A DNA stretch of 64,000 bases, from NCBI GenBank assembly GCA_965208105.1, contig OZ242318.1:1920001-1984000 (forward strand), read 5' to 3'. The DNA is from Candidatus Latescibacterota bacterium (lineage in GTDB: Bacteria; Latescibacterota; UBA2968; UBA8231). This document shows, one piece after another, positions 1,521 through 43,011 of this stretch (positions are counted from its first letter, which is position 1; the number at the start of each line of letters is the position of its first letter). Both the position numbers and the translations under genes were made by a program. The notes under the pieces are model-generated. The model did not search any database, was not told the origin of the DNA, and saw only the letters and a program-made list of their open reading frames with translations.

Positions 1521-3422
1521 TCACTCTCGCAGTACCCTGACGTCCCCCCTCCGTTCGGTGAATCCCTCGCGGTCGAAATAGCCCAGAAGCGCCAGGGCGT
1601 ACCTGCGGTTGCCGGCGATCAGGTCGCGAAAATCGGCCACCGTGATCTCATTCTTCCGGCGCAGATAGCGGCGCAGTTTCTCCCGCATGGCCTCCAGGGT
1701 CTCGGCGTGCAGGATCAGGCCGCCCTCCAGGGTTGCCACCCGCCCCAGGCTCTGCATGGCGCGCAGCAAGTCTTCCATCTCCGAATGGTCGACCCGCAGC
1801 CGTTGGGCCAACTCTTCCGCCCCGGGCATCTCGGCGAATCCGGCGGTTTTCAGGGCATTCTCGATCTGCTCCTTCAGTCCTTCTTCCTCCGCGGTCAGGC
1901 GGATGCGGTGCGAAGCTGCGCGCACCACCGCAGCATCCACGGCGATGCTGCCGGCGTCCTCCATGGCTTCGAACAGGCGGTCGAAGAGGACCGGGTGCAG
2001 ACTGCGCGCGCATAGGTTGCGCCACTCCTCCCGGCGCAGGCCCTGCTTCAGCGGGTTGCGACGGTGGAAATTCCGCAAGCCGGCCTCGACGCGCCGGCTC
2101 AGCTCATCCCAGACCTCGGAGTGCAGCGCGCACAACTCGTTGTCGACCTGCATCAGCACCGCCCGTCCGCCGCGCTCCAGATCGTCAAGCACCTCTTCGA
2201 CCCGCTCCAGGCCCTGTCCCATGTCGCCGGCCAGCCCACTGCGGGAACTCAGCCTCTCCGCGGCCAGGCGCAGCTTTGCCTCGACCGCCTCTTCGAGAGC
2301 GCTGGTCTCGAGGGCGGCGAGTTGCCCTCCGAGGGCAGGGTCGAGGCGCCTGTGCTTCTGCGGATGCGGCTCCAGGACCAGCCCGCCCCCGATGGTCAGG
2401 GCCGGCGAGTAGCGCCGGATCACGAAGCGGTCTCCCCAGACGGCGACCACCGGCGCCTCCAGCCGCAGCTGCACCAGGGAATCCGCCCCCGGGGCCAGGA
2501 CCTCCCCCTCGAGCAGCACCACGCGGGCCATGATCTCCCGGGTGCCGAGGTGCAGCCGCACCCGCGTGCGCTGGGTCAGCTCCCTCGGGCTCGAGGGCAG
2601 CAGGCGCAAACGCGCGTCTATCATGTGGGTGGGCCTGAAGTATCCTGGACTGGCGACCAGGTCGCCGCGCCTCACGTCGGTCTCGTCGACTCCGGGCAGG
2701 TTGACCGCGGCGCGGTCTCCGCTGCGGACCGCCTCTACCGGCGTGCCGTGCTTCTGCAGTCCGCGGGCGCGAATGGGGCGGCCCGCCGGCTGCAGCTCAA
2801 CCCCCTCGCCCTCGCCCAGGCTGCCGGAAACCACCGTACCCGTGGCCACCATGCCGAATCCCTTGACCCGGAAGGTGCGATCCACCGGCAGGCGGAATGG
2901 GCCCGCGGCGCGTTTCTCGACCGTGGCCTCGACCAGGGTCTGGAGACGGCGCTCGAGGGCCTCGATCCCGGCTCCGCTCAGGGCGGACACCCGCATGATG
3001 TCCTCCCCTTCCAGGAAGCTGCCCCGCACCAGCTCGCGGATATCCTCTTCCACGAGCTCGATCCACTCCTCTTCCACCAGGTCGATCTTGTTGAGCACCA
3101 CGAGACCGCGCTTCACCCCCAGGAGATTGAGGATATCCAGGTGCTCGCGCGACTGCGGCATGACCCCGTCGTCGGCGGCGATGACGAACAGGCCCAGGTC
3201 GATGGAGCTGACCCCGGCCACCATGGTCTTGACGAAGCGCTCGTGGCCGGGCACGTCGACGATGGTGGCTTCGTCGCCGAAAAAGGCAAAGCCCAGCTCG
3301 ATGGTTATGCCGCGGGCCTTTTCCTCGGGAGCCCGGTCGGTATCGACCCCGGTGAGCGCCTTCACCAGCAGGGTCTTGCCGTGGTCGATGTGTCCTGCGG
3401 TACCTATAATGGTGTGGGGCAT
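1521..3422 (-). CDS. selB: Selenocysteine-specific translation elongation factor SelB
   Basis: Starts MPHTIIGTAGHIDHGKT. Contains EEKARGITIELGFA, DVPGHERF, NKID and a long C-terminal winged-helix extension ending RRYALALLGYFDREGFTERRGDVR. ATG at 3422 gives 633 aa. Confidence 0.96.
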   Translation of the reverse strand: MPHTIIGTAGHIDHGKTLLVKALTGVDTDRAPEEKARGITIELGFAFFGDEATIVDVPGHERFVKTMVAGVSSIDLGLFVIAADDGVMPQSREHLDILNLLGVKRGLVVLNKIDLVEEEWIELVEEDIRELVRGSFLEGEDIMRVSALSGAGIEALERRLQTLVEATVEKRAAGPFRLPVDRTFRVKGFGMVATGTVVSGSLGEGEGVELQPAGRPIRARGLQKHGTPVEAVRSGDRAAVNLPGVDETDVRRGDLVASPGYFRPTHMIDARLRLLPSSPRELTQRTRVRLHLGTREIMARVVLLEGEVLAPGADSLVQLRLEAPVVAVWGDRFVIRRYSPALTIGGGLVLEPHPQKHRRLDPALGGQLAALETSALEEAVEAKLRLAAERLSSRSGLAGDMGQGLERVEEVLDDLERGGRAVLMQVDNELCALHSEVWDELSRRVEAGLRNFHRRNPLKQGLRREEWRNLCARSLHPVLFDRLFEAMEDAGSIAVDAAVVRAASHRIRLTAEEEGLKEQIENALKTAGFAEMPGAEELAQRLRVDHSEMEDLLRAMQSLGRVATLEGGLILHAETLEAMREKLRRYLRRKNEITVADFRDLIAGNRRYALALLGYFDREGFTERRGDVRVLRE

Positions 3423-3558
3423 AACTGCTTGCGAGAACTCAATTTTCCTGGGGAACGGACTTCGAGGTAAAATATCTCGGTGGCCCATTCCGCACAATAG
3501 CTGTTGAAGCCAGCTTCCATCTGCGTATATTCCTTCGAGAACCCGGGAGGAGAGCATC

Positions 3559-4191
3559 ATGGCCGAGGTACTGAGCATCGACCCCCTGCACCTCAAAGGG
3601 CGCCACATCAAGCGCGCGGTGGACGTCCTCAACGACGGCGGCGTCATCGTCTATCCCACCGACACCATCTACGGCCTGGGCTGCGACATCACCAGCAAGA
3701 AGGCGGTGGAGCAGACCCGCCGCATCAAGGGCCGGGACTCCAAGAAACCCATGTCGTTCGTGTGCGCCGACCTGGCCAACATCAGCCAGTACGCCCGGGT
3801 TTCGAACTTCGCCTACCGGATACTGAAGCGCTGCCTTCCGGGTCCCTACACCTTCGTGCTGCCCGCCACCAAGGATACCCCCCGCATCCTGCAGACGCGG
3901 CAGAAGACCGTGGGGCTGCGGGTCCCCGACCATCCCGTGCCGCTCGCCCTGGTGAGCCAACTGGGGCGTCCCATCCTCAGCACCAGCGCCAACTACACCG
4001 ACCACGAGGTCATCACCGACCCGGGCGAGCTGGAGCAGACCCTGGGACGAAGGGTGGACCTCATCCTCGAATGCGGCCAGCTCCCCGTCCTCCCCTCCAG
4101 CGTCATCTCCCTGGTCGACGACGAGGTGAACATCCTGCGCGCCGGCAAGGGCGACCTCGGTTTTTTCAAGGAGGAGCATGAGGACGCTTAG
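3559..4191 (+). CDS. L-threonylcarbamoyladenylate synthase family (Sua5/YciO/YrdC)
   Basis: YPTDTIYGLGCD, PGPYT, VGLRVPD and STSAN motifs; GGAG SD upstream. Confidence 0.93.
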   Translation: MAEVLSIDPLHLKGRHIKRAVDVLNDGGVIVYPTDTIYGLGCDITSKKAVEQTRRIKGRDSKKPMSFVCADLANISQYARVSNFAYRILKRCLPGPYTFVLPATKDTPRILQTRQKTVGLRVPDHPVPLALVSQLGRPILSTSANYTDHEVITDPGELEQTLGRRVDLILECGQLPVLPSSVISLVDDEVNILRAGKGDLGFFKEEHEDA

Positions 4192-30935: not shown

Positions 30936-32822
30936 ATGCGTGCATTGCGCATCAGTTTATTTGGACTGGCCCTCGGCGTGCTGGCCGCGGGCACGGCTTG
31001 GGCCGAGGAACAGGCACCGACCTTCCCCTCCTCACCCGACTGGGATGGCAACTTCTCTCAGCCCGAGGTTTCCGGGGTGTTCAACCCCATGCGGATTACG
31101 GTCGAGGACGTGGCCTATGACGGGCAGGGCAGTGCGACCATCCCCTTCAGCCTCAACCAGCGCGGCCGGGCCTGGGTGGCCATCTACGAGACGGGCAACA
31201 CCGAGACCGGACGAACCGGACCCTTCGGCGCCTGGTGGCGCTTCGAACCGCAGGACAAGTTCGTGGCCATGACACCGGACCAGATCTTCGAGGCGGGCAG
31301 GAACACGATCACCTGGGACGGGAATGACTGGGAGGGCAATGCCGCGGGGGCCGGCCAGTACGAATTCGACCTGATCGCGGTCAACAACATCGACAAGCCC
31401 GTCCTGGCTGGTCCCGGCTCCGGCACCGGTTTCGGCCACAACCGCATCGACACCCGCCATGACCCGGCCGAGATCTGGTGTCAGGAAGCCGACCGCGCCG
31501 GAGGCGACGGCCTGTACGGGGCCGGCGACATCATCCGCGGCACCATGGGCACCGACTACCTTGCCAACCCGAACGCCTGGGAGCGCTGGACCTACAACGA
31601 CGTGCTGAATTTCGAAGGGGCGCGCACCCTGGGCGGATTCCGCCCTGACGACGCCAGCACCGAGATCTTCTGGACCACCCAGCACAGCGGTGAGTTCGGA
31701 GGGCTCTACAAGATGATCATCAATCGCTCGGCCAGAGCCTGGGACCGGGACGAATCCTTCGGCGACAACGGCTTTGCCGCCAACAAGGAGGACAGAATCG
31801 TTGGGATCGAGCCCTGGGAACCTCTGGGCATCGTCTACGCGGGGCACGACAGCAAGGGCGATGTGCCCTTCCCCTCCATCGAGTCATGGGACAAGACTTC
31901 GGGCGAGATCAGCCGCGAGTTCGACATGTCCGACATCTATATCCTCTCCAGGACCGATGACGAGGGCAATGAGGTGGTCTTCGCAACGGGTCCGCGCAAT
32001 ATCGCGGTCAATTCCCTGGGGATTTGGACTTCTTCCTGGTCCTCGCAGAAGATCGCGCACGTGAACCACAACGGCGACCTCATATGGATGAACGACAATG
32101 GCGATTTCAGAGGGGACAGAATCTCCAACGAGGATGCGGCCGAACTCGGCATGTCAGGCGGGTCCGTTTCCACCAACATGCAGATGGGGGTCCGAAGCAC
32201 AGGAGCTACGCTCTTCATGGCCTCCTACGGCAACGAGCGGGGCGCGGACTTCAGCGGCTATGGGCGCGACGGTGCCGGCCTCATGGACGTCATATTGCCG
32301 TCCTCCATCGGTCCCTTCCGTCCCGAAACGAGCTGGTACCTCACCATCGTCGACGACGGGGACGGCCCCTACGACGGCGCCTACACCAGCGGTCATTACT
32401 ATCTGATAACCAGGGAATTCAGCGCCCCCGAGGAAGGAAAACGGGGTCCGGGCGCGTTGATGTACATCCCCCTGGATTTGGAGACCGCCAATCTCGGCGC
32501 AGGCGCGACCGCGGTTGAGGCCGTCGAGAGCGCCGGCACGCCCGACAGCTACAGCCTGGGCCGGGCCTATCCCAACCCGTTCAATCCGGAGACCACCATC
32601 GAGTTCAGCGTGCCGTCTGACGGCTACGTCGAGATCGGGGTTTACAACGCGGTCGGCCAGCAGGTGGCCAGCCTGGTGGACAAGGAACTGAGCGCGGGCA
32701 ACTACAAGACCACGTGGGATGCGCTCGACCGCAGCGGTCAGAAGGTGTCGAGCGGGGTCTACTTCTACCGGATGCAGGCCGGCGACTTCAGCGCCACGCA
32801 TTCCATGAGCCTGCTCAAATAG
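30936..32822 (+). CDS. Secreted protein with FlgD-Ig-like domains and a T9SS-sorting-like C-terminus
   Basis: Signal peptide (…TAWA|EE); TITWDGND..AGAGQY near the N-terminus; C-terminal YPNPFNPETTIEF..WDA..SGVYFYRM; AGGAGG SD. Confidence 0.8.
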   Translation: MRALRISLFGLALGVLAAGTAWAEEQAPTFPSSPDWDGNFSQPEVSGVFNPMRITVEDVAYDGQGSATIPFSLNQRGRAWVAIYETGNTETGRTGPFGAWWRFEPQDKFVAMTPDQIFEAGRNTITWDGNDWEGNAAGAGQYEFDLIAVNNIDKPVLAGPGSGTGFGHNRIDTRHDPAEIWCQEADRAGGDGLYGAGDIIRGTMGTDYLANPNAWERWTYNDVLNFEGARTLGGFRPDDASTEIFWTTQHSGEFGGLYKMIINRSARAWDRDESFGDNGFAANKEDRIVGIEPWEPLGIVYAGHDSKGDVPFPSIESWDKTSGEISREFDMSDIYILSRTDDEGNEVVFATGPRNIAVNSLGIWTSSWSSQKIAHVNHNGDLIWMNDNGDFRGDRISNEDAAELGMSGGSVSTNMQMGVRSTGATLFMASYGNERGADFSGYGRDGAGLMDVILPSSIGPFRPETSWYLTIVDDGDGPYDGAYTSGHYYLITREFSAPEEGKRGPGALMYIPLDLETANLGAGATAVEAVESAGTPDSYSLGRAYPNPFNPETTIEFSVPSDGYVEIGVYNAVGQQVASLVDKELSAGNYKTTWDALDRSGQKVSSGVYFYRMQAGDFSATHSMSLLK

Positions 32823-37453: not shown

Positions 37454-38314
37454 TCATTCCCACGAGTCCACACCGGCAAGTTTGCGGCCCAGGGGCGTCA
37501 GCTCGGCGGTGGGCGACTCGTGGTGCTCACGCCCATCTCTATAGCGCCCCCCGAGAGCGTACCTTCCCGTCAGGCGCCGGCGCCAGAAGTCCACCCGGAT
37601 CCGGCGTGCTTCCTTGCCGTCGTCGCGCGCCGGCTCCATGGCGATGTATTGAGCCACGCGGGGCCGCACACCCCGGTTGATGCCGGCCGAGTGCGGCAGG
37701 GCCGTGCGCCAGATGATCAGGTCGCCGGCTTCGGCTCCGATGCGCCGGGGCGGATCGTCCCCCTCGTAGGTCCTGCCGCCAGGAGGCAGACGTTCGAGCC
37801 AGTCCTCCAGTTTCCTGTGGAATCCCGGGACGCAGACAAAGGCCCCCTGTTTCGCGGGGGTGTCGTTCAGGTAAAGGACGCCCTGCACTCCGAAGGCCAC
37901 CGGACGGTCTTCCAGGTCTGCGTCCCAGTGCAGTCCCTCTTCCTGCTGGCCTGGGTCGCGGCTCGGGGGATTTATGCTGGCGCGGTCGTGGCTGACCCAC
38001 AGCTTTTCGCTGCCGAATATCTGGCTGAAGGCCCGGTGCACGCGCGGGGCGGTGCGGTTGTTCCACAGGGTCTGGTGGTGGTAGATCTCGATCATGATGG
38101 TGCCCTTGCGGGCCGGGACCCCGGGGCCATCGGGGCCGGCCGGCCCCGGCGGCGGCTCCGCGTACCAGGTGCCCGGATCATCCGGGTCCTTTTGCGCAAA
38201 CGCCCAGATGGCGCGGGCGGTTTCCTCGGCCTGTTCTCGTGAGACGGCCTGGCGGGCGATGACGTAGCCGTTTTCGTCGAAGAATTCCAGATCTCTGTCG
38301 CTGAGCACGGACAT
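37454..38314 (-). CDS. PhyH family Fe/2OG oxygenase
   Basis: FFDENGYVI, LHWD, VQGVLYL.DT, CVPGFH and AGDLIIW..LPH; GGAGG SD before ATG 38314. Confidence 0.86.
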   Translation of the reverse strand: MSVLSDRDLEFFDENGYVIARQAVSREQAEETARAIWAFAQKDPDDPGTWYAEPPPGPAGPDGPGVPARKGTIMIEIYHHQTLWNNRTAPRVHRAFSQIFGSEKLWVSHDRASINPPSRDPGQQEEGLHWDADLEDRPVAFGVQGVLYLNDTPAKQGAFVCVPGFHRKLEDWLERLPPGGRTYEGDDPPRRIGAEAGDLIIWRTALPHSAGINRGVRPRVAQYIAMEPARDDGKEARRIRVDFWRRRLTGRYALGGRYRDGREHHESPTAELTPLGRKLAGVDSWE

Positions 38315-38642
38315 GGAAACTACCCTCCGGTTATGCGTTGGCACCGGCCTGCCCTGGAGCCCCTTTTTCCCCTTGGCAAAATCAACCTGGGCCCTGGTAG
38401 AACCCCGCCAGGTTTGACACAGGAGGAGACGAGTATTCAATCCCTTACTTCTGTCCTTTACTTTAGATAGTGGCGCCCCCCGGTGCAAGGCGAACCCGAC
38501 CTCCCTGGCGAAGTGGATGGCGCGCATCCTGCCAAACGTTTTAACCCGCCCTCAACGCCAGTGGATCAGGTCCGTTGCCCGGGTTTGCCGGGATGGGCGG
38601 GAAGACTTTTTTTATGGACAGACCCTTGCAGGCCAGCGGAGC

Positions 38643-39311
38643 ATGATGAAGGAACTCACTCTTCTCCTCCTGACGTTCTACATGGGCGCCGCACCTGTCT
38701 TTGCGCAGGAAGCGCAGGCCGATTCCTCGCGGAGCGAACGGCCGGTGTTTTCGATGACCCCCAGCTGAGTGGGCTGACCAGGCGAAGGCGCACCGCTCCG
38801 GGGGAGCGGCATCCATACGAAGATTTCCTTCTCGGGGCGTTTCGTGGATACGTCCAGGGACCGCCCGCGATGGCGGTTCACCGCCAGCTACCGCCTGCAT
38901 CGGCGCCTGCAGGTCGGGGCCGAGCTGAATCCAAAGGCGAAGGAGGCGGGACCTCTTGTTACCCTGTTCCTGTTCACCGAGACCCGGACCCGTCCCGCGC
39001 TCTTTCTGGGCACGAGCTCGGACCGGATCGGCTCGCCGGCGGGGGAGCAGTCCTACTTCGCGACGACAAGCAAATTCATCCCCCGGCTGCGCGCTGCCTT
39101 CTACGGCAGCCTGAATTACTCCGAGTGGGACGGCAAGCTCAATCTTCCCCTCGGCGCCGAAATCGAACTGGGCAGAGGCTTCTCGCTGCGGCCCATGTAC
39201 GACGGCGACCGCGGGCATGTGATGCTGAATTATTTCGCGGCGCAATACGGTGTCAGCCTGATGTACGTTTGGTTCGAGACCCCGGGTATTTCGCTATCAC
39301 TCGGATTCTAG
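38643..39311 (+). CDS. Candidate exported double selenoprotein (UxxU motif), beta-rich, unknown family
   Basis: ORFs 38517-38768 and 38844-39311 share a frame and are separated only by TGA-GTG-GGC-TGA (38766-38777). Read-through gives 222 aa: signal peptide MMKELTLLLLTFYMGAAPVFA, then …TPS-U-VG-U-PGEG…, ending GISLSLGF. A hairpin follows the TGAs and selB is in the window. Confidence 0.72.
38793..38809 (+). promoter_or_regulatory. Candidate SECIS hairpin for the UxxU gene
   Basis: CCGCTC-CGGGG-GAGCGG; the loop starts 30 nt after the first TGA and 21 nt after the second. Confidence 0.62.
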
Positions 39312-39333
39312 TGTCCCGTCGCATGGAGGACCG

Positions 39334-40017
39334 ATGCGTTTTCGCAAGATTCTATTTCTGATTGTTCTGGCAAGTTCAGCTTCCCTTGTAGCTGAAATCT
39401 CGATTCCCGAAAAGGCCCTCTGCAGTGTCTGTGCATTGAAGGGCGGCGAGACGGAGCTGGAAAAGGTCAAGGCCCACTCCGAACATGAAGACACGCCCTA
39501 CTATTTCTGCTCCGGAGACTGCAAGGAAGAATTCGACTCTGACCCCCTGGCCTATATCCCACCTGAGTTTCCACGGCCCGCCCCGGCCTTCACCGTCGAA
39601 ACTCCCCAGGGCGGGGACAAGGCGCTGGAGGACCTGAAGGGCAAGGTCGCGATCGTGGACTTCTGGGCTACGTGGTGCAAACCTTGTCTCGAGGGCATGC
39701 CCCGGCTGCAAAAGCTCTACAACGCCTATTCCGGCCAGGGCTTCGAGGTTTGGGGCGTGGCCATAGACGAAGGTCAAAACCGGGTCGAGAAGATTGAGCG
39801 AATGGTGGACAAGTTGGATATCTCCTATCCCATCTTCCTCGAAGCGAAACGGATGCCTGCCTGGTACCTTTTCAAGGTCAAGGCGATTCCCGCCATGTAT
39901 CTCCTGGACGGAGAAGGCCGGATCGCGGCGCAGTGGACGGGAAAGATAGATTTCGAGGCTGCAGAGAAGGAAGTCCAGAGATTGCTGGAAGAAAGGGCCC
40001 AGGGCGATGAGCCGTGA
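39334..40017 (+). CDS. Exported YHS/TRASH-domain plus TlpA-like thioredoxin fusion
   Basis: Signal peptide; CSVC and YYFCSGDCKEEFDSDP (YHS); VDFWATWCKPC and cis-Pro VKAIP (TlpA/redoxin); GGAGG SD. Confidence 0.88.
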   Translation: MRFRKILFLIVLASSASLVAEISIPEKALCSVCALKGGETELEKVKAHSEHEDTPYYFCSGDCKEEFDSDPLAYIPPEFPRPAPAFTVETPQGGDKALEDLKGKVAIVDFWATWCKPCLEGMPRLQKLYNAYSGQGFEVWGVAIDEGQNRVEKIERMVDKLDISYPIFLEAKRMPAWYLFKVKAIPAMYLLDGEGRIAAQWTGKIDFEAAEKEVQRLLEERAQGDEP

Positions 40018-40146
40018 GCAGGTCCGCGGCAAAGAATATGGAAAGCCGAGGTTGAGGCGCCCTGAGCGAATCCCTTGCGGTGAGTACGCTCGTCCGTGTT
40101 GCTCCCGCTCGATCCACACCATCGCAGTTGAGAACAGGAGCCTGAT

Positions 40147-43011
40147 ATGAGACGGTTCTGGATGCTGTCCCCTGTTGTTCCCTTGCTGCTGTGCGCCTGC
40201 GCCGGCACCCCGAAGGCACCCGCGTCGCGGCCGGAAGTGGAGAAGACGACCGCGGAGCCGGAGGACCCGAAGCTGGCCATCGACCCCCTGGTGACCACCG
40301 GCCGGCTCGACAACGGCCTGCGCTACGTCATCCGCAAAAACCAGAAGCCCGAGAACAGGGTCGAGCTGCGGCTGGCGGTCGACGCGGGATCGGTGCTGGA
40401 GGACGAAGACCAGCAGGGCCTGGCGCACTTCGCCGAGCACATGGCCTTCAACGGCACCAAAAACTTCGCCAAGCAGGAGCTGGTGGACTACCTGGAGCTG
40501 ATCGGCATGCGCTTCGGGCCGGACCTCAATGCCTACACCAGCTTCGACGAGACCGTCTACATGCTCACCGTGCCCACCGACAGCGCCGAGGTGGTGGAAA
40601 CGGCCTTCCAGATTCTGGAGGACTGGGCCCACCAGATCAGCTTCGAAGCGGAGGAGATCGACAAGGAGCGGGGCGTGGTCATCGAAGAGTGGCGCCTGGG
40701 CCGCGGCGCCCAGCAGCGCATGTTCGACCGGCAACTTCCCATCATCCTCAAGGATTCGCGCTACGCCGCGCGCCTGCCCATCGGTCAAAAGGCCGTGCTC
40801 GATACCTTCGGGCACGAGACCCTGCGCCGCTTCTATCGCACCTGGTACCGGCCCGACCTCATGGGTTTCACGGCCGTCGGCGATATCGAGCCGGCGGCTG
40901 TGGAGGCGCTGGTGCGGAAGTACTTCGGGCGCATCCCGGCGGCGGAAAACCCGCGCCAACGCACGGTTTTCCAGGTGCCCGACCACGAGGAGACCCTCTT
41001 CGCCATCGCCTCCGACCCGGAGGCCACCCACAACAGCGTCAGCATCTACTACAAGATGGACGTGCGGCCCCAGGGGACCGTGAGCACCTACCGGCGCTCG
41101 CTCATCGAGGGCCTGTATCACCGCATGTTCAACCAGCGCCTGCACGAGCTGACCAAGCTTCCCGAGCCGCCTTTCCTGGGAGCCTATTCGGGGCAGGGGC
41201 GCTGGCTGCGCTCCAAGGAGTTCTTCGTCCTCGGCGCCGGGGTGCAGAACAACGGGTTGGACGCCGGACTGGAGGCCCTGCTGCTCGAGGCGGCGAGAGT
41301 GCGGCAGCACGGCTTCACCGCCTCCGAGCTGGAACGCGAGAAGAAGGAAATGCTGCGCGGCGTGGAGCAGGCCTACCGCGAGCGCGACAAGCAGCAGTCG
41401 AGCGCCTTTGCCGCCGAGTACGTGCGCCATCTGCTGACCGGCGAGGCCATCCCCGGCATCGCCGGGGAGTACGAGCTCTACCAGGAGCTGGTCCCCGGCA
41501 TTGCGCTGGAGGAGGTCAATGCGCTGGCCAGCGAGTGGACCAGCGAAGAGAACCGGGTGATCGCCGTGGATGCTCCCGAGCAGGAGGGCATTGACGTGCC
41601 CGACGAGCAGGACCTGCTGTCGATCTTCGCCCGGGTGGCGCGGCGGGAGATCGCGCCCTACGCCGACGAGGTGTCCGACGACCCGCTCGTGGCCCAGGTG
41701 CCGGCTGCGGCTGAAATCGTCGAGCGCAGTGAAATTCCCGAGATCGGGGTGACCTGGTGGACCCTTTCCAACGGCGTCAGGGTGTGCCTGAAGCCGACGG
41801 ACTTCAAGAACGACGAGATCCTCTTCAATGCCTACAGTCCCGGGGGGCACTCCCTGGTCCCCGACGCCGATTACGTCGCCGCCTCGACGGCGACCGCGGT
41901 GGTGGGAGAGGGCGGCGTCGGGCCGTTCGACAAGATCGAGCTGGAGAAGAAACTTGCCGGCAAGGTGGTGGGGGTATCACCGTGGATCGGCAGCCTGCGG
42001 GAGGGGATTTCCGGCTCGGCCTCGCCCGAGGACGTGCGCACCATGTTCGAGCTGATCTACGCCTTCTTCACCGCTCCGCGCCAGGACAGCACCGCCTTCC
42101 AGGCCTACCGGACGCGCATGCGAGGCTCCATCCAGAATCGCAGCGCGCGCCCGGAGACCGCCTTCGGGGACACCATTGCGGTCACCATGTCCCAGTACCA
42201 CCACCGCGGGCGCCCCTGGTCGCTGGAGCTGCTCGACGAGATGGACCTGGCCACCTCCATGGCCGTGTACCGGGACCGCTTTGCCGACGCCGGCGACTTC
42301 TCTTTCTTCTTCGTCGGCAACTTCACCCTCGAGGGCATGGAGCCGCTGGTGCGCAGCTATCTGGGCGGTCTGCCGTCCGCGGGACGGGAGGAGACCTGGC
42401 GCGACCTGGGCATCGATGCCCCGGAGGGCGTGGTCGACAAGGCGGTCCACCGCGGCATCGAACCCAAGAGCCGGTCGCGGATGATCTTCACCGGCCCCTT
42501 CGAGTACGACGGCTGGAAGAACAACCTCGAACTCGGGGCCATGACCTCCGTGCTGCAGATCAAGCTGCGCGAGGTTCTGCGCGAGGACCTGGGCGGCACC
42601 TATGGAGTCTGGGTCGGCGGCACGGGCTCGCGCTACCCGGACGGGGAGTACCGCATCTCCATCACCTTCGGCAGCGATCCCGACCGCGTCGAGGAGCTGA
42701 CGCAGGTGATATTCGCGCAGATCGACAGTCTGAAGACCGCCGGCACCACCGGCCTCTACATCGACAAGGTCAAGGAAATGCGCAAGCGCCGGCGCGAGAT
42801 CGACCTCAAGGAGAACGGTTTCTGGGTCCGGGCCCTGGAGTCGGCCGACTTCAACGGCGTCGATCCGCGGCTGCTGGTTCGCTACCCGGAGCTGGTCGAC
42901 TCGCTGACCGCGGAGATGGTGCAGCAGGCGGCGCGGAAGTACTTCAACATGGACCGCTACGTGCGGGTGGTGCTGTATCCGGAGGACCCGGGCGAGCCGG
43001 GAGAGGAGTAG
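40147..43011 (+). CDS. M16 (pitrilysin/insulinase, PqqL-like) zinc protease, lipoprotein
   Basis: Lipobox-like LLCAC; LDNGL, AHFAEHMAF (HxxEH), NAYTSFDETVY, LSNGV and LREDLGGTY. Confidence 0.92.
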   Translation: MRRFWMLSPVVPLLLCACAGTPKAPASRPEVEKTTAEPEDPKLAIDPLVTTGRLDNGLRYVIRKNQKPENRVELRLAVDAGSVLEDEDQQGLAHFAEHMAFNGTKNFAKQELVDYLELIGMRFGPDLNAYTSFDETVYMLTVPTDSAEVVETAFQILEDWAHQISFEAEEIDKERGVVIEEWRLGRGAQQRMFDRQLPIILKDSRYAARLPIGQKAVLDTFGHETLRRFYRTWYRPDLMGFTAVGDIEPAAVEALVRKYFGRIPAAENPRQRTVFQVPDHEETLFAIASDPEATHNSVSIYYKMDVRPQGTVSTYRRSLIEGLYHRMFNQRLHELTKLPEPPFLGAYSGQGRWLRSKEFFVLGAGVQNNGLDAGLEALLLEAARVRQHGFTASELEREKKEMLRGVEQAYRERDKQQSSAFAAEYVRHLLTGEAIPGIAGEYELYQELVPGIALEEVNALASEWTSEENRVIAVDAPEQEGIDVPDEQDLLSIFARVARREIAPYADEVSDDPLVAQVPAAAEIVERSEIPEIGVTWWTLSNGVRVCLKPTDFKNDEILFNAYSPGGHSLVPDADYVAASTATAVVGEGGVGPFDKIELEKKLAGKVVGVSPWIGSLREGISGSASPEDVRTMFELIYAFFTAPRQDSTAFQAYRTRMRGSIQNRSARPETAFGDTIAVTMSQYHHRGRPWSLELLDEMDLATSMAVYRDRFADAGDFSFFFVGNFTLEGMEPLVRSYLGGLPSAGREETWRDLGIDAPEGVVDKAVHRGIEPKSRSRMIFTGPFEYDGWKNNLELGAMTSVLQIKLREVLREDLGGTYGVWVGGTGSRYPDGEYRISITFGSDPDRVEELTQVIFAQIDSLKTAGTTGLYIDKVKEMRKRRREIDLKENGFWVRALESADFNGVDPRLLVRYPELVDSLTAEMVQQAARKYFNMDRYVRVVLYPEDPGEPGEE

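What the first reader, a model, noticed from the sequence alone, without database searches (positions are those of the whole stretch)
38643..39311. Hidden exported protein with two in-frame UGA codons forming a UxxU (Sec-Val-Gly-Sec) motif in a non-thioredoxin, beta-barrel-like protein
Seen: ATG 38643/38646 (GGAG SD) opens a clean signal peptide (…APVFA|QE). The frame runs to …TPS-TGA-GTG-GGC-TGA-CCA-GGC… (38766-38777) and stays open to TAG 39311. The downstream half alone has only a GTG start without a clear SD and no export signal, yet it is rich in alternating hydrophobic/polar strands and ends in …GISLSLGF. A G-rich-loop hairpin follows the TGAs, and selB is in the window. Established: bacterial Sec is encoded by UGA plus a 3'-adjacent SECIS read by SelB; UxxU is known from selenoprotein L, a thioredoxin-like fold forming a diselenide; a C-terminal Phe is typical of outer-membrane barrels. 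Inference: a 222-aa exported, possibly outer-membrane protein with U42 and U45 near its mature N-terminus. I cannot assign it to any known selenoprotein family, and standard annotation would split it into two hypotheticals.
Basis: partly seen in the sequence, partly recalled or inferred. Interest (0 to 1): 0.93.

Follow-up and report, generated by a model that had tools for sequence, protein, structure and literature searches.

The report
Two-selenocysteine outer-membrane barrel protein
The two in-frame TGA codons are almost certainly selenocysteine codons in an exported outer-membrane barrel protein of a widespread, always mis-annotated family that travels with, or is fused to, metal-binding and thioredoxin-like modules, which points to an undescribed selenium-dependent envelope system.

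Summary
Window 38643-39311 (+) encodes a 222-aa protein. It has a signal peptide, a flexible tether carrying Sec42-Val-Gly-Sec45, and a 12-stranded outer-membrane beta-barrel.

Evidence that both TGAs are read as Sec:
- Both TGAs are kept in every intact homologue I fetched, from Latescibacterota, Gemmatimonadota, Calditrichia and Acidobacteriota.
- Relatives have CxxC (50 of 50 examined) or UxxC at the same columns.
- One hairpin lies 31 nt after UGA1 and 22 nt after UGA2. It fits the published bacterial SECIS model and covaries strongly.
- Codons between the TGAs and the annotated GTG start vary only at third positions.
- The genome has selA, selB, selC and selD.

Pfam, NCBIfam and a 2026 catalogue of 119 prokaryotic selenoprotein families do not hold this family.

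A YHS/TRASH plus TlpA-like thioredoxin gene lies directly downstream in nearly all loci. In Acidobacteriota the thioredoxin domain is fused in front of the UxxU motif, often through a His-rich linker. In Armatimonadota YHS domains are fused there instead.

My best reading is a tethered selenol pair at the periplasmic mouth of an outer-membrane channel that handles a thiophilic metal, probably copper. The gene call is near-certain; the function is inferred.

The parts
38637..38640 (+). Shine-Dalgarno GGAG ahead of ATG 38643/38646
   Evidence: Read. The same GGAGC-ATG arrangement is seen upstream of homologues (L002, L003, L006).
38643..39311 (+). Full coding sequence of the 222-aa selenoprotein (U42, U45), stop TAG 39309-39311
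   Evidence: Translation with TGA=U. Full-length homologues with the same two TGAs.
38643..38705 (+). Signal peptide (residues 1-21, ...APVFA|QE); no lipobox Cys
   Evidence: The n/h/c regions are read from the sequence. The model shows a helix at residues 2-21. It is conserved in homologues. No signal-peptide predictor was available.
38706..38822 (+). Flexible N-terminal tether of the mature protein (residues 22-60) carrying the motif
   Evidence: AlphaFold2 mean pLDDT is 49-67 over residues 21-60, against more than 89 for the barrel. The sequence SERPxFSMTPTUxGUPGEGAPLRGSG is conserved.
38766..38768 (+). UGA1 = Sec42
   Evidence: Aligned with Cys in CxxC relatives and with the single UGA of the UxxC form in L068.
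38775..38777 (+). UGA2 = Sec45
   Evidence: Aligned with Cys (TGT) in L068 and with Cys in CxxC relatives.
38793..38809 (+). SECIS-like hairpin: 7-bp stem (38793-38799 with 38803-38809), loop GGG (38800-38802)
   Evidence: -11.5 kcal/mol. Pair counts on 27 rows: 99.5% paired; pair 39-51 GC12/AU10/GU5. On 55 rows: covariation 0.439 against 0.154 shuffled, 0 of 500 shuffles as high. It meets the loop, stem, G-in-loop, spacing and energy terms of the bSECIS model quoted in PMC13188914, section 5.
38823..39308 (+). 12-stranded beta-barrel domain (residues 61-222), C-terminal ...GISLSLGF
   Evidence: AlphaFold2 block-mean pLDDT is 89-95, with 12 main strands. Foldseek matches: designed transmembrane barrels (E 1.3e-4), FapF (1.7e-4), KdgM (TM 0.62, rmsd 3.9-4.3).
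38844..39311 (+). Truncated ORF that table-11 gene calling yields (GTG start, 155 aa); not the real N-terminus
   Evidence: ORF list. 933 database proteins match it, nearly all of 151-166 aa. It would start at residue 68, so it lacks strand 1 (61-68) and any signal peptide.
39334..40017 (+). Partner gene: signal peptide + TRASH/YHS-type Cys motif (C30xxC33...C59xxxC63) + TlpA/ResA-like thioredoxin domain (WATWCKPC)
   Evidence: Pfam AhpC-TSA 8.5e-19, Redoxin 4e-13, YHS 1e-4 (below cut-off). NCBIfam ResA and TlpA matches are below their cut-offs. Translation. tblastn finds it in 33 of 35 loci; 31 hits are full-length and directly downstream.
1521..3647 (-). selB (Sec-specific elongation factor) in the same window
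   Evidence: SelB-wing_3, 63.2 bits (cut-off 23.2), at window 1530-1670 inside this 708-aa ORF.

Best explanation
Window 38643-39311 is one gene for an exported selenoprotein.

How the gene is read:
- Translation starts at ATG 38643/38646. The Sec pathway exports the product and the signal peptide is cut after Ala21.
- Both UGA codons (38766, 38775) are decoded as selenocysteine by SelB and tRNA-Sec.
- A single hairpin (38793-38809) directs both. It lies 31 nt after UGA1 and 22 nt after UGA2, measured to the loop.

The product:
- Residues 61-222 form a 12-stranded outer-membrane barrel that ends in an aromatic residue.
- Residues 22-60 are a flexible periplasmic tether carrying Pro-Ser/Thr-Sec-x-Gly-Sec-Pro-Gly-Glu-Gly.

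The system:
- The protein works with the product of the next gene (39334-40017). That product is a periplasmic protein with a four-Cys YHS/TRASH metal-binding domain and a TlpA-like CxxC thioredoxin domain.
- In other lineages the same modules are fused into one chain: thioredoxin-(His-rich linker)-UxxU-barrel, or YHS-YHS-CxxC-barrel.

Most likely mechanism (inferred):
- The selenol pair sits at the periplasmic mouth of the channel and binds a thiophilic metal ion, Cu(I) being the best guess.
- It receives the ion from, or hands it to, the YHS or His-rich module.
- The thioredoxin domain keeps the pair reduced, out of the diselenide state.
- The barrel, whose conserved Asp/Glu/His/Arg residues may line the pore, carries the ion across the outer membrane. 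The direction is unknown.

Shown: the gene, both Sec codons, the hairpin, the fold class and the module linkage. Inferred: topology, metal binding, which metal, and transport.
For: GENE AND SEC CODONS
- Both TGAs are conserved. Relatives: 8 of 8 motif-covering matches. Phylum scan: 27 of 27 intact matches, in 34 of 168 matching genomes. Named genome records of four to five phyla: 23 of 26 intact with both TGAs; the other 3 are broken copies. Acidobacteriota sample: 32 of 32 matching genomes out of 401 (includes unpublished G219).
- TGA also ends this same gene in 13 of the 33 loci listed (L006, L010, L030, L033-L037, L042-L044 among them), so it is a stop in those genomes.
- Cys stands at both columns in P0157, P0174, P0178 and P0214 and in 50 of 50 Armatimonadota-type relatives. 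L068 holds a UxxC form (TGA then TGT).
- Codon-position diversity over PGEGAP is 0 / 0 / 0.41, and over the hairpin codons 0 / 0 / 0.31 (28 distinct sequences).

HAIRPIN
-. Pair 28-44: CG27/GC23. Pair 31-41: CG28/GC19/AU6/GU2 with none unpaired. 0 of 500 shuffles reach the covariation score, and versions slid by 1-3 columns are 29-65% paired against 88.6%.
- L068, which has only UGA1, has its loop at the same nucleotides 35-37.
- The hairpin fits the published bSECIS constraints.

SEC MACHINERY
- tRNA-Sec at 69.6 bits with anticodon TCA. SelA. SelB. SelD, itself with one in-frame TGA.
- SelA is found in 33 of 34 barrel-positive genomes of the phylum (131 of 168 overall) and in 32 of 32 Acidobacteriota (301 of 401 overall).

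FOLD
- AlphaFold2 mean pLDDT 84.5 and pTM 0.76, with 12 strands. Foldseek matches transmembrane barrels.

MODULE LINK
- The partner gene is found in 33 of 35 loci, while the other neighbours differ between loci.
- Of 29 Acidobacteriota loci, 21 have the TlpA-like domain fused upstream in the same open frame. Four more have it upstream in another frame or behind a stop; for L074 and L078 Pfam gives a sub-threshold YHS match in front of the motif, and L075 and L076 show the same stretch by eye. Nine of the 29 have at least 4 His in the 45 residues before U1.
- YHS domains are fused in front of the CxxC barrel in P0152, P0162, P0207, P0209 and P0180. 43 further relatives of 375-435 aa carry precomputed YHS hits.

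ANALOGY
- PcoB is a 12-stranded outer-membrane barrel with a disordered His/Met-rich N-terminal domain needed for copper resistance (PMC9210255, abstract and passages; PMC12509749, abstract).
Against: - There is no direct evidence of expression or of selenium in the protein. No RNA run holds the locus and no proteomics was available.
- The tether is modelled with low confidence (pLDDT 49-67), so where the Sec pair sits relative to the pore is unknown.
- The partner's YHS match is below Pfam's cut-off in this window (22.6 bits against 30.3) and in the fused L074 and L078.
- No copper, mercury or other metal-resistance gene or metal-sensor operator lies next to the cassette in this window or in the 7 other loci whose neighbours I scanned.
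- Only 9 of 29 Acidobacteriota loci have His-rich linkers.
- The SelA association is weak as statistics, because SelA is common in both phyla (78% and 75%) and related genomes are not independent.
- A thioredoxin partner fits a purely redox role equally well.
Confidence: 0.6

Rival explanations
1. Same gene and same two Sec residues, but the role is purely redox. The UxxU pair cycles between diselenide and diselenol. It reduces a periplasmic, outer-membrane or extracellular oxidant or disulfide (peroxide, selenite/tellurite, oxidised envelope proteins). The TlpA-like domain recycles it, and the barrel is only an anchor.
For: The partner, or the fused domain, is a TlpA/ResA-like CxxC thioredoxin in almost every locus. 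The review states that most uncharacterised prokaryotic selenoproteins with UxxC/CxxU-type motifs are expected to be redox proteins (PMC13188914, section 7). 20 of 29 Acidobacteriota loci have no His-rich linker. One locus (L042) has a catalase-peroxidase-type gene next to the cassette.
Against: This does not explain the recurrent YHS/TRASH domains, the His-rich linkers placed directly before U1, or the secreted Cys-rich small ORFs ahead of the UxxC form in L068. It also does not explain why the barrel keeps invariant polar residues (D127, R128, D187, H192) if it is only an anchor.
Confidence: 0.25
2. The annotation is right. The TGAs are stops, a 41-aa leader peptide is made from 38643, and a separate 155-aa protein starts at GTG 38844. 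A variant of this rival is that the gene is a pseudogene.
For: Table-11 ORF calling gives exactly these pieces, and public databases hold them as separate proteins.
Against: A product starting at residue 68 would lack barrel strand 1 and any export signal. The 22 codons between UGA2 and GTG 38844 evolve like coding sequence. Both TGAs and the peptide around them are kept at 31-82% protein identity across phyla. Cys replaces them in relatives. Truly broken copies look different, with an added TAA or TAG or a lost N-terminus (G153, G151, L045, L047).
Confidence: 0.02
3. TGA is read through as another residue (Trp or Gly, as in genetic codes 4 or 25, or near-cognate read-through) and not as selenocysteine.
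For: Two database entries (P0064, P0202) show W at both positions. That is what a code-4 gene call would print.
Against: TGA is the real stop of this same gene in 13 of the 33 loci listed, and of L068. Aligned residues in TGA-free relatives are Cys, never Trp or Gly (50 of 50). A covarying SECIS-type hairpin sits at fixed distance. The genome has selA, selB, selC and selD.
Confidence: 0.02
4. The beta-rich domain is a soluble periplasmic or secreted barrel and not an integral outer-membrane protein.
For: The barrel is small (about 160 residues for 12 strands). Foldseek scores are modest: best E 1.3e-4, TM 0.34-0.62. A few soluble barrels appear far down the list.
Against: All matches with E up to 0.01 are transmembrane barrels: designed TM barrels, FapF, KdgM and OmpU. 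The C-terminus has alternating hydrophobic residues and ends in Phe in 49 of the 56 sequences whose C-termini print, counting distinct full-length sequences only; 5 of the other 7 end in Leu or Trp. The host phyla have an outer membrane (general knowledge), and a type-IX secretion sorting domain is encoded in the window.
Confidence: 0.06

Closest known systems
Catalogued bacterial UxxU selenoproteins: Prx-like thiol:disulfide oxidoreductase (PF00578, UxxC/UxxU), 'metal-binding protein' NF041115 (UxxU, 2 Sec), FmdB-family protein (TIGR02605, UxxU). Source: Table 1 of PMC13188914, read.
   Same: Two Sec three residues apart stand where relatives have CxxC. Both UGAs lie close enough to be served by one downstream hairpin. 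A metal-binding or redox role is expected.
   Different: Neither Pfam nor NCBIfam matches the protein at E up to 1. The fold is an outer-membrane barrel, not a thioredoxin, HMA or zinc-ribbon fold. The motif sits on a disordered tether outside the folded domain.
PcoB/CopB outer-membrane copper protein (PMC9210255; PMC12509749)
   Same: A 12-stranded outer-membrane barrel with a flexible N-terminal tail rich in metal-binding residues. That tail is needed for copper resistance. PcoB works with a periplasmic partner encoded in the same operon.
   Different: No detectable sequence relation: no Pfam family, CopB included, matched at E up to 1, and PcoB is not among the Foldseek matches listed. The ligands here are a fixed Sec/Cys pair, not a loose His/Met-rich stretch. 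The partner is a YHS + thioredoxin protein, not a multicopper oxidase.
TlpA-type periplasmic thioredoxins that reduce Cys pairs of copper proteins (ScoI, CoxB); this function is recalled, not read here
   Same: The partner protein's best NCBIfam matches are ResA (89.6 bits) and TlpA (66.1 bits), and it has a WCxPC site. It is exported. It is encoded beside, or fused to, a protein with a Cys/Sec pair.
   Different: The scores are far below the equivalog cut-offs of 170 and 230 bits. The partner carries an extra YHS/TRASH domain. The presumed client is an outer-membrane barrel tether, not an inner-membrane copper chaperone.
Outer-membrane barrel selenoproteins already catalogued: GSU2204 / MtrB-PioB family (NF041027) and the FCYXU-type TonB-dependent receptor (NF049945). 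Source: Table 1 of PMC13188914.
   Same: Sec in an outer-membrane beta-barrel protein, so the location has precedent.
   Different: Those are large barrels with one Sec. There is no NCBIfam match here. This family has two Sec on an N-terminal tether and a 160-residue barrel.
KdgM/NanC porins and the FapF barrel (structural neighbours)
   Same: A 12-stranded barrel: KdgM TM 0.62, rmsd 3.9-4.3 A over about 185 columns; FapF E 1.7e-4. FapF also has an N-terminal periplasmic extension (recalled).
   Different: Sequence identity is 10-12%, and neither Pfam nor a PDB sequence profile search finds a match. No Sec or Cys motif is known in those families.

Membership tests
Bacterial selenoprotein (SelB/SECIS-dependent UGA decoding) | In-frame UGA conserved among orthologues, with coding conservation on both sides | tested here: met
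   (both TGAs in all intact homologues). (third-position-only variation after the TGAs).
Bacterial selenoprotein (SelB/SECIS-dependent UGA decoding) | Cys at the aligned position in some homologues | tested here: met
   CxxC in P0157, P0174, P0178, P0214 and in 50 of 50 relatives. UxxC in L068.
Bacterial selenoprotein (SelB/SECIS-dependent UGA decoding) | [quoted passage not shown] | tested here: met
   Loop GGG, 7 bp, 31 nt (UGA1) and 22 nt (UGA2), -11.5 kcal/mol. Covariation. bSECISearch itself was not available.
Bacterial selenoprotein (SelB/SECIS-dependent UGA decoding) | Host genome encodes selA, selB, selC, selD | tested here: met
Bacterial selenoprotein (SelB/SECIS-dependent UGA decoding) | Selenium actually incorporated (75Se labelling or mass spectrometry) | not testable with these tools
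   No proteomic or labelling data. No RNA run holds the locus.
Thioredoxin-fold UxxU proteins (Prx-like PF00578 form; SelL) | Thioredoxin-like fold with the UxxU at the active-site helix | tested here: not met
   No Pfam thioredoxin-type match for the protein. The model is an all-beta barrel and the motif lies in a disordered tether.
NF041115 UxxU metal-binding (HMA-type) selenoprotein | Match to the NCBIfam model / HMA fold | tested here: not met
   0 NCBIfam families at E up to 1 for P0001, P0157 and P0135.
Integral outer-membrane beta-barrel protein | Cleavable signal peptide, even number of antiparallel strands closing a barrel, C-terminal aromatic residue | tested here: met
   Signal peptide read from the sequence (no predictor run). 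12 strands at pLDDT above 89. Foldseek matches to transmembrane barrels. C-terminal ...GF in this protein, and Phe at the end of 49 of 56 distinct full-length homologues printed. Membrane insertion itself was not tested.
PcoB/CopB family | Sequence membership (Pfam CopB model) | tested here: not met
   No Pfam family at E up to 1. The likeness is in architecture only.
KdgM/NanC porin family | Sequence membership | tested here: not met
   No Pfam family at E up to 1. The PDB profile search found only two chance antibody hits at E 0.84. Structural likeness only.

The most novel reading that the evidence does not exclude
This is the core of an undescribed selenium-dependent envelope machine, widespread in Latescibacterota, Gemmatimonadota, Calditrichia and Acidobacteriota, with a Cys version in Armatimonadota. 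A tethered Sec-x-x-Sec pair guards the periplasmic mouth of a minimal 12-stranded outer-membrane channel. It passes a thiophilic metal such as Cu(I) between YHS or His-rich modules and the channel, and a dedicated TlpA-like domain keeps it reduced. That would make it the first outer-membrane metal transport system built around selenocysteine, and a case of one SECIS hairpin serving two UGA codons nine nucleotides apart.
Probability: 0.4. Interest if true: 0.82.

Novelty: new variant of a known kind. Interest (0 to 1): 0.72.

Why it matters
- The family is large. 933 database clusters match the barrel. It occurs in 34 of 168 Latescibacterota genomes and 32 of 401 sampled Acidobacteriota genomes. 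All but 1 of the 120 listed entries are N-terminally truncated, because gene callers stop at the two UGAs. Its signal peptide, its first strand and its active motif are therefore missing from public protein sets.
- It adds a family with an unusual fold and location to the known selenoproteome, most of which is thioredoxin-like (PMC13188914, section 7).
- It gives a clean natural example of two Sec codons read with one hairpin, with all three forms UxxU, UxxC and CxxC available for comparison.
- The three independent fusion architectures (thioredoxin-UxxU-barrel, YHS-UxxU-barrel, YHS-YHS-CxxC-barrel) define a testable module for metal or redox chemistry at the outer membrane. Very little is known there about how soft metals cross.
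- Practically, an HMM of the full-length family would let annotation pipelines repair hundreds of gene calls.

Tried and rejected
FAMILY AND STRUCTURE SEARCHES
- Pfam and NCBIfam scans of the read-through protein, the 155-aa ORF and the overlapping 292-aa ORF in another frame found nothing at E up to 1.
- The PDB sequence profile search gave only two chance antibody hits at E 0.84.

HOMOLOGUE SEARCHES
- The search for related loci with broad alignments failed for lack of a conserved stretch. I used a single protein and a smaller alignment instead.
- The metagenome scan for Cys forms returned only one locus, L068, which turned out to be a UxxC form.
- I could not fetch DNA for the Armatimonadota CxxC forms or for P0135 ('CVGW', possibly CxxU with TGA printed as W). 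Their codons and neighbours are therefore unverified.
- P0185 was too distant to serve as a genome-scan query. P0064 was used instead.

EXPRESSION AND READS
- No RNA holder is listed for the locus.
- The holders are sponge and marine metagenomes of 9 studies. I laid only contigs, which cannot show expression.

REGULATION AND CONTEXT
- The promoter, terminator and inverted-repeat scans of 38300-40250 and 38440-38660 found no plus-strand sigma-70-type promoter and no operator-like repeat. This says little for organisms with other promoter types.
- Neighbour genes outside the two-gene cassette are unrelated from locus to locus: CreD, PhyH and an M16 peptidase here; hydantoinase, ankyrin, MIP, KatG-type peroxidase, methyltransferases and others elsewhere. 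I rejected a larger conserved operon.

NOT ATTEMPTED
- I sent no complex prediction. The motif cannot be written under code 11, and the fusions already show the physical linkage.

LITERATURE
- Four searches. I read sections 5 and 7 (parts 1-2) of PMC13188914. I read passages of PMC9312934 and PMC2398784.
- No description of this family was found.
- 'Hypothetical protein GOS_A' of PMC2398784 (2 Sec sequences, 155 Cys homologues, no domain) is not defined in the text I could read. Its sequences are in a supplement I could not open, so identity with this family cannot be fully excluded. The Sec/Cys ratio is the opposite of what I see here.
Full report
OBSERVATION. GGAG lies at 38637-38640 and ATG ATG at 38643/38646. 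The peptide MMKELTLLLLTFYMGAAPVFA|QE has the shape of a signal peptide. TGA codons lie at 38766-38768 and 38775-38777, separated by GTG GGC. The frame then stays open to TAG 39309-39311. Under table 11 only two pieces are listed: 38517-38768 and GTG 38844-39311 (155 aa). Read with TGA as Sec, the product is 222 aa with U42 and U45. The region is 58-66% G+C, so long spurious ORFs on other frames are expected. The 292-aa ORF 38483-39361 in another plus-strand frame had no family match; the 234-aa minus-strand ORF 38541-39245 was not scanned.

ARE THE TWO TGAs REAL AND CONSERVED? A six-frame search of 41 related genomes, the window's own included, found the protein in 10. All 8 other matches that cover the motif carry exactly two in-frame TGAs. 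The ninth match is cut by a contig end. A scan of named genome records gave 26 loci labelled Latescibacterota, Gemmatimonadota, Calditrichia, Acidobacteriota (Thermoanaerobaculia, Multivoradales) and 'Deferribacteres'. Of these, 23 are intact and read ...P-T-U-x-G-U-P-G-E-G-A-P-L-R-G-S-G.... The other three (L032, L045, L047) are visibly broken copies.

In all 168 genomes held for the phylum, 34 match. All 27 intact matches have two TGAs. Two more have the two TGAs plus an extra TAA or TAG, and the rest are fragments. In an even sample of 401 Acidobacteriota genomes, 32 match at 31-59% identity, and all 32 have two TGAs over the motif. That tally includes one unpublished genome, G219, which I left out of every later alignment and count.

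Assembly error is excluded by this recurrence. It is also excluded by a contig from another study that covers 38600-39053 with six differences, none at the TGAs. TGA is not a sense codon in these organisms. It is the true stop of this same gene in 13 of the 33 loci listed (L006, L010, L030, L033-L037 and L042-L044 among them), and of L068.

SEC VERSUS CYS. A HMMER search of 1.84 billion representatives found 160 relatives. Full-length members without TGA have Cys at both columns: P0157, P0174, P0178 and P0214 read PTCAGCA-EAR. A metagenome contig (L068) has TGA at the first column and TGT at the second, which is a UxxC form. Fifty of 50 further relatives, several named Fimbriimonadaceae or Fimbriimonas by their sources, have PTCAGCAG. 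P0064 and P0202 show W at both columns, which is what a code-4 gene call of TGA would print. P0135 shows C-V-G-W and may be a CxxU form, but I could not see its DNA. More distant members (P0155, P0159, P0226, P0255) lack the motif.

SECIS. A hairpin follows the TGAs: CCGCUCC-GGG-GGAGCGG, at 38793-38809, -11.5 kcal/mol. The review PMC13188914 (section 5) gives the bacterial model as a 3-9 nt loop with G in its first two positions, a 4-16 bp stem, 16-37 nt between UGA and loop, and MFE of -7.5 kcal/mol or lower. Here the loop is GGG and the stem is 7 bp. The spacing is 31 nt for UGA1 and 22 nt for UGA2. One hairpin therefore satisfies the model for both codons.

On 27 distinct close sequences, 99.5% of cells pair. 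Pair 39-51 is GC in 12, AU in 10 and GU in 5, and it is never unpaired. These changes are at synonymous third positions. On 55 distinct sequences that include Acidobacteriota and L068, the stem is 88.6% paired. Pair 28-44 is CG27/GC23. Pair 31-41 is CG28/GC19/AU6/GU2 with none unpaired. Pair 30-42 shows five pair types. No shuffle out of 500 reaches the covariation score (0.439 against 0.154), and versions slid by 1-3 columns are 29-65% paired.

The rows that do not fit are five acidobacterial loci that carry a different hairpin with a CGUGA loop. L068, with only the first UGA, has its loop at the same nucleotides 35-37. The peptide over the hairpin (PLRGSG, or AVRGTA in Acidobacteriota) is invariant in Sec forms, but it is free in pure Cys forms (EARPMQDG, EARVVTAG). 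That is what an RNA constraint predicts. The selD gene of this genome has its own in-frame TGA followed by a hairpin with a GG-initial loop.

TRANSLATION OF THE 'GAP'. Across 28 distinct sequences, nucleotide diversity by codon position is 0/0/0.41 over PGEGAP, 0/0/0.31 over the hairpin codons and 0.25/0.25/0.59 over the next 11 codons. This is purifying selection on a translated frame upstream of the annotated GTG.

SEC MACHINERY. The genome has the following:
- tRNA-Sec (69.6 bits against a cut-off of 47; anticodon TCA).
- selA, about 21 kb before the window.
- selB inside the window (ORF 1521-3647, minus strand).
- selD.

SelA is found in 33 of the 34 barrel-positive genomes of the phylum. 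The exception is 81% complete. Overall 131 of 168 have it. SelA is also found in 32 of 32 barrel-positive Acidobacteriota, against 301 of 401 overall (those tallies include unpublished G219, G322 and G194). This is consistent but weak, because SelA is common in both phyla and related genomes are not independent.

FOLD. AlphaFold2 on a 56-sequence alignment gave mean pLDDT 84.5 and pTM 0.76. The model has three parts:
- a helix at residues 2-21, the signal peptide;
- a low-confidence stretch at residues 22-60 that holds U42 and U45;
- 12 main strands from 61 to 221, with block-mean pLDDT of 89-95.

Foldseek against the PDB returned transmembrane barrels only at E up to 0.01: designed TM barrels (1.3e-4), FapF (1.7e-4), KdgM (TM 0.62, rmsd 3.9-4.3 A) and OmpU. 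OEP21 and a designed 12-strand barrel follow just above that. The chain ends ...GISLSLGF.

The product annotated from GTG 38844 would begin at residue 68. It would lack strand 1 and any export signal. Family-wide conserved residues are R78, G92, E94, D127-R128 (SSDRIG), G171, D187-G188 and H192 (YDGxxxH). I could not inspect the model's coordinates, so whether they line the pore is not known.

PARTNER AND FUSIONS. The next gene (39334-40017) encodes an exported protein with C30xxC33...C59xxxC63 (YHS, below cut-off) and a TlpA/ResA-like thioredoxin domain with WATWCKPC. tblastn finds it in 33 of 35 loci. In 31 of them it is full-length and directly downstream. The misses are one contig end and one pseudogene, and the two remaining hits are a copy 1.8 kb away and a fragment. 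The other neighbours differ from locus to locus, so the unit is a two-gene cassette.

In other lineages the modules are one polypeptide. Of 29 Acidobacteriota loci:
- 21 have the TlpA-like domain upstream in the same open frame as the UxxU barrel. Pfam AhpC-TSA/Redoxin scores are E 1e-15 to 1e-24 in L083, L080, L088 and L097.
- 4 have the TlpA-like gene upstream in another frame or behind a stop. L074 and L078 give sub-threshold YHS matches in front of the motif, and L075 and L076 show the same stretch by eye.
- 2 keep the window's arrangement.
- 2 show no partner.

Nine of the 29 have at least four His in the 45 residues before U1. L083, L086 and L088 have eight or nine. In the Cys lineage, one or two YHS/TRASH domains precede PTCAGCAGEAR and the barrel (P0152, P0162, P0207, P0209, P0180). 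43 further proteins of 375-435 aa carry precomputed YHS hits. The UxxC locus L068 is preceded by two secreted Cys-rich small ORFs.

MECHANISM. Shown:
- one gene;
- two Sec codons with one SECIS-type hairpin;
- an outer-membrane-type 12-stranded barrel with a disordered N-terminal tether;
- obligatory association with a thioredoxin-like and a YHS or His-rich module.

Inferred:
- The tether is periplasmic. This is the usual topology of even-stranded outer-membrane barrels, and PMC9210255 states it for PcoB.
- The Sec pair binds a soft metal.
- The YHS or His module supplies or accepts that metal.
- The thioredoxin domain keeps the pair reduced.
- The barrel conducts the ion.

The nearest worked example is PcoB, a 12-stranded barrel whose disordered His/Met-rich N-terminal domain is needed for copper resistance. 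I put the gene call at about 0.95, the outer-membrane barrel at about 0.85 and the metal relay at about 0.5. A purely redox role is the main rival, at about 0.25. What weakens the metal reading is the lack of any metal-resistance neighbour or metal-sensor operator, the sub-threshold YHS scores here, and the absence of any experimental datum.

COMPARISON WITH WHAT IS KNOWN. The 2026 catalogue of 119 prokaryotic selenoprotein families (PMC13188914, Table 1, read in full) lists three UxxU families: Prx-like PF00578, metal-binding NF041115 and FmdB TIGR02605. It also lists two outer-membrane barrel selenoproteins, NF041027 and NF049945. All of its entries are defined by Pfam, NCBIfam, TIGR, cd or PTHR models. 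This protein matches no Pfam or NCBIfam model at E up to 1 and has no thioredoxin fold. I found no paper describing it. GOS_A of PMC2398784 cannot be fully excluded, because its sequences are in a supplement I could not read.

Earlier notes of this same scan (e1-5219701, e1-4668115, e1-5219699, e1-3211065) describe the same family in other genomes and reach the same reading. They are AI notes and not independent evidence. Their claims of two Sec, a 12-strand barrel, a thioredoxin partner and absence from catalogues were re-derived here from my own calls. The claim of a CxxU member in a copper-efflux island was not tested.

VERDICT. This is a real gene of a selenoprotein family that I found in none of the catalogues and papers I could search. 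Sec decoding is canonical. The fold, the location and the module architecture are new for selenoproteins. The function is inferred and not shown.

Noticed in passing
G000:C1:3653826-3654752 (minus strand; locus L069), outside the window: The genome's selD has one in-frame TGA (...VACGGU ASKLSPGE...), followed by a hairpin with a GG-initial loop. Selenophosphate synthetase is therefore itself a selenoprotein here.
   Followed up: partly
L053 (G153), L067 (G151), L032, L045, L047; fragments in G142, G144, G099, G128: Several Latescibacterota genomes hold decayed copies of the barrel gene: the two TGAs plus an extra TAA or TAG, or a lost N-terminus. In L045 and L047 the partner gene is missing or reduced to a fragment, which suggests the cassette is lost as a unit.
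   Followed up: partly
L080, L081, L084, L086, L088 (Acidobacteriota loci): Five loci with the motif U-P-L-U followed by GRAVSGA carry a different hairpin (GCC-G-CGC / loop CGUGA / GCG-G-GGC), about 5 nt closer to the UGAs than the common CC-GGG-GG type. This is a second SECIS variant within one protein family.
   Followed up: partly
L068 1670-2140 and 2201-2423 (+): Two small exported ORFs packed with Cys-Cys motifs (metallothionein-like, no Pfam match) lie directly upstream of the UxxC form of the barrel gene. No YHS-thioredoxin gene stands out in the ORF and Pfam lists for the downstream side of that locus.
   Followed up: partly
L080 and L097 (Acidobacteriota), N-terminal to the thioredoxin domain: The fused proteins carry a further N-terminal segment of about 120 residues with a conserved Cys pattern (GQVVC-x-x-CW ... 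C ... C). It has no Pfam match and may be another metal or redox module.
   Followed up: no
window 38774-38812: When contigs of four public runs were laid on the window, extra contigs from other organisms in the same samples matched only this 36-39-nt stretch (UGA2 to the end of the hairpin) at 85% or more. This shows how strongly the SECIS region is conserved at the nucleotide level across species. The runs that hold the locus are sponge and marine metagenomes.
   Followed up: partly
window 30936-32822 (+): A 628-aa protein with FlgD-Ig and type-IX-secretion C-terminal sorting domains, consistent with a diderm organism of the FCB group. L040 has a similar gene beside its cassette.
   Followed up: no
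window 37454-38527 (-) and L002, L006, L027, L030: A PhyH-family dioxygenase gene lies beside the cassette only in the closest relatives. It sits upstream here and downstream in L030, so it is probably not part of the system.
   Followed up: partly
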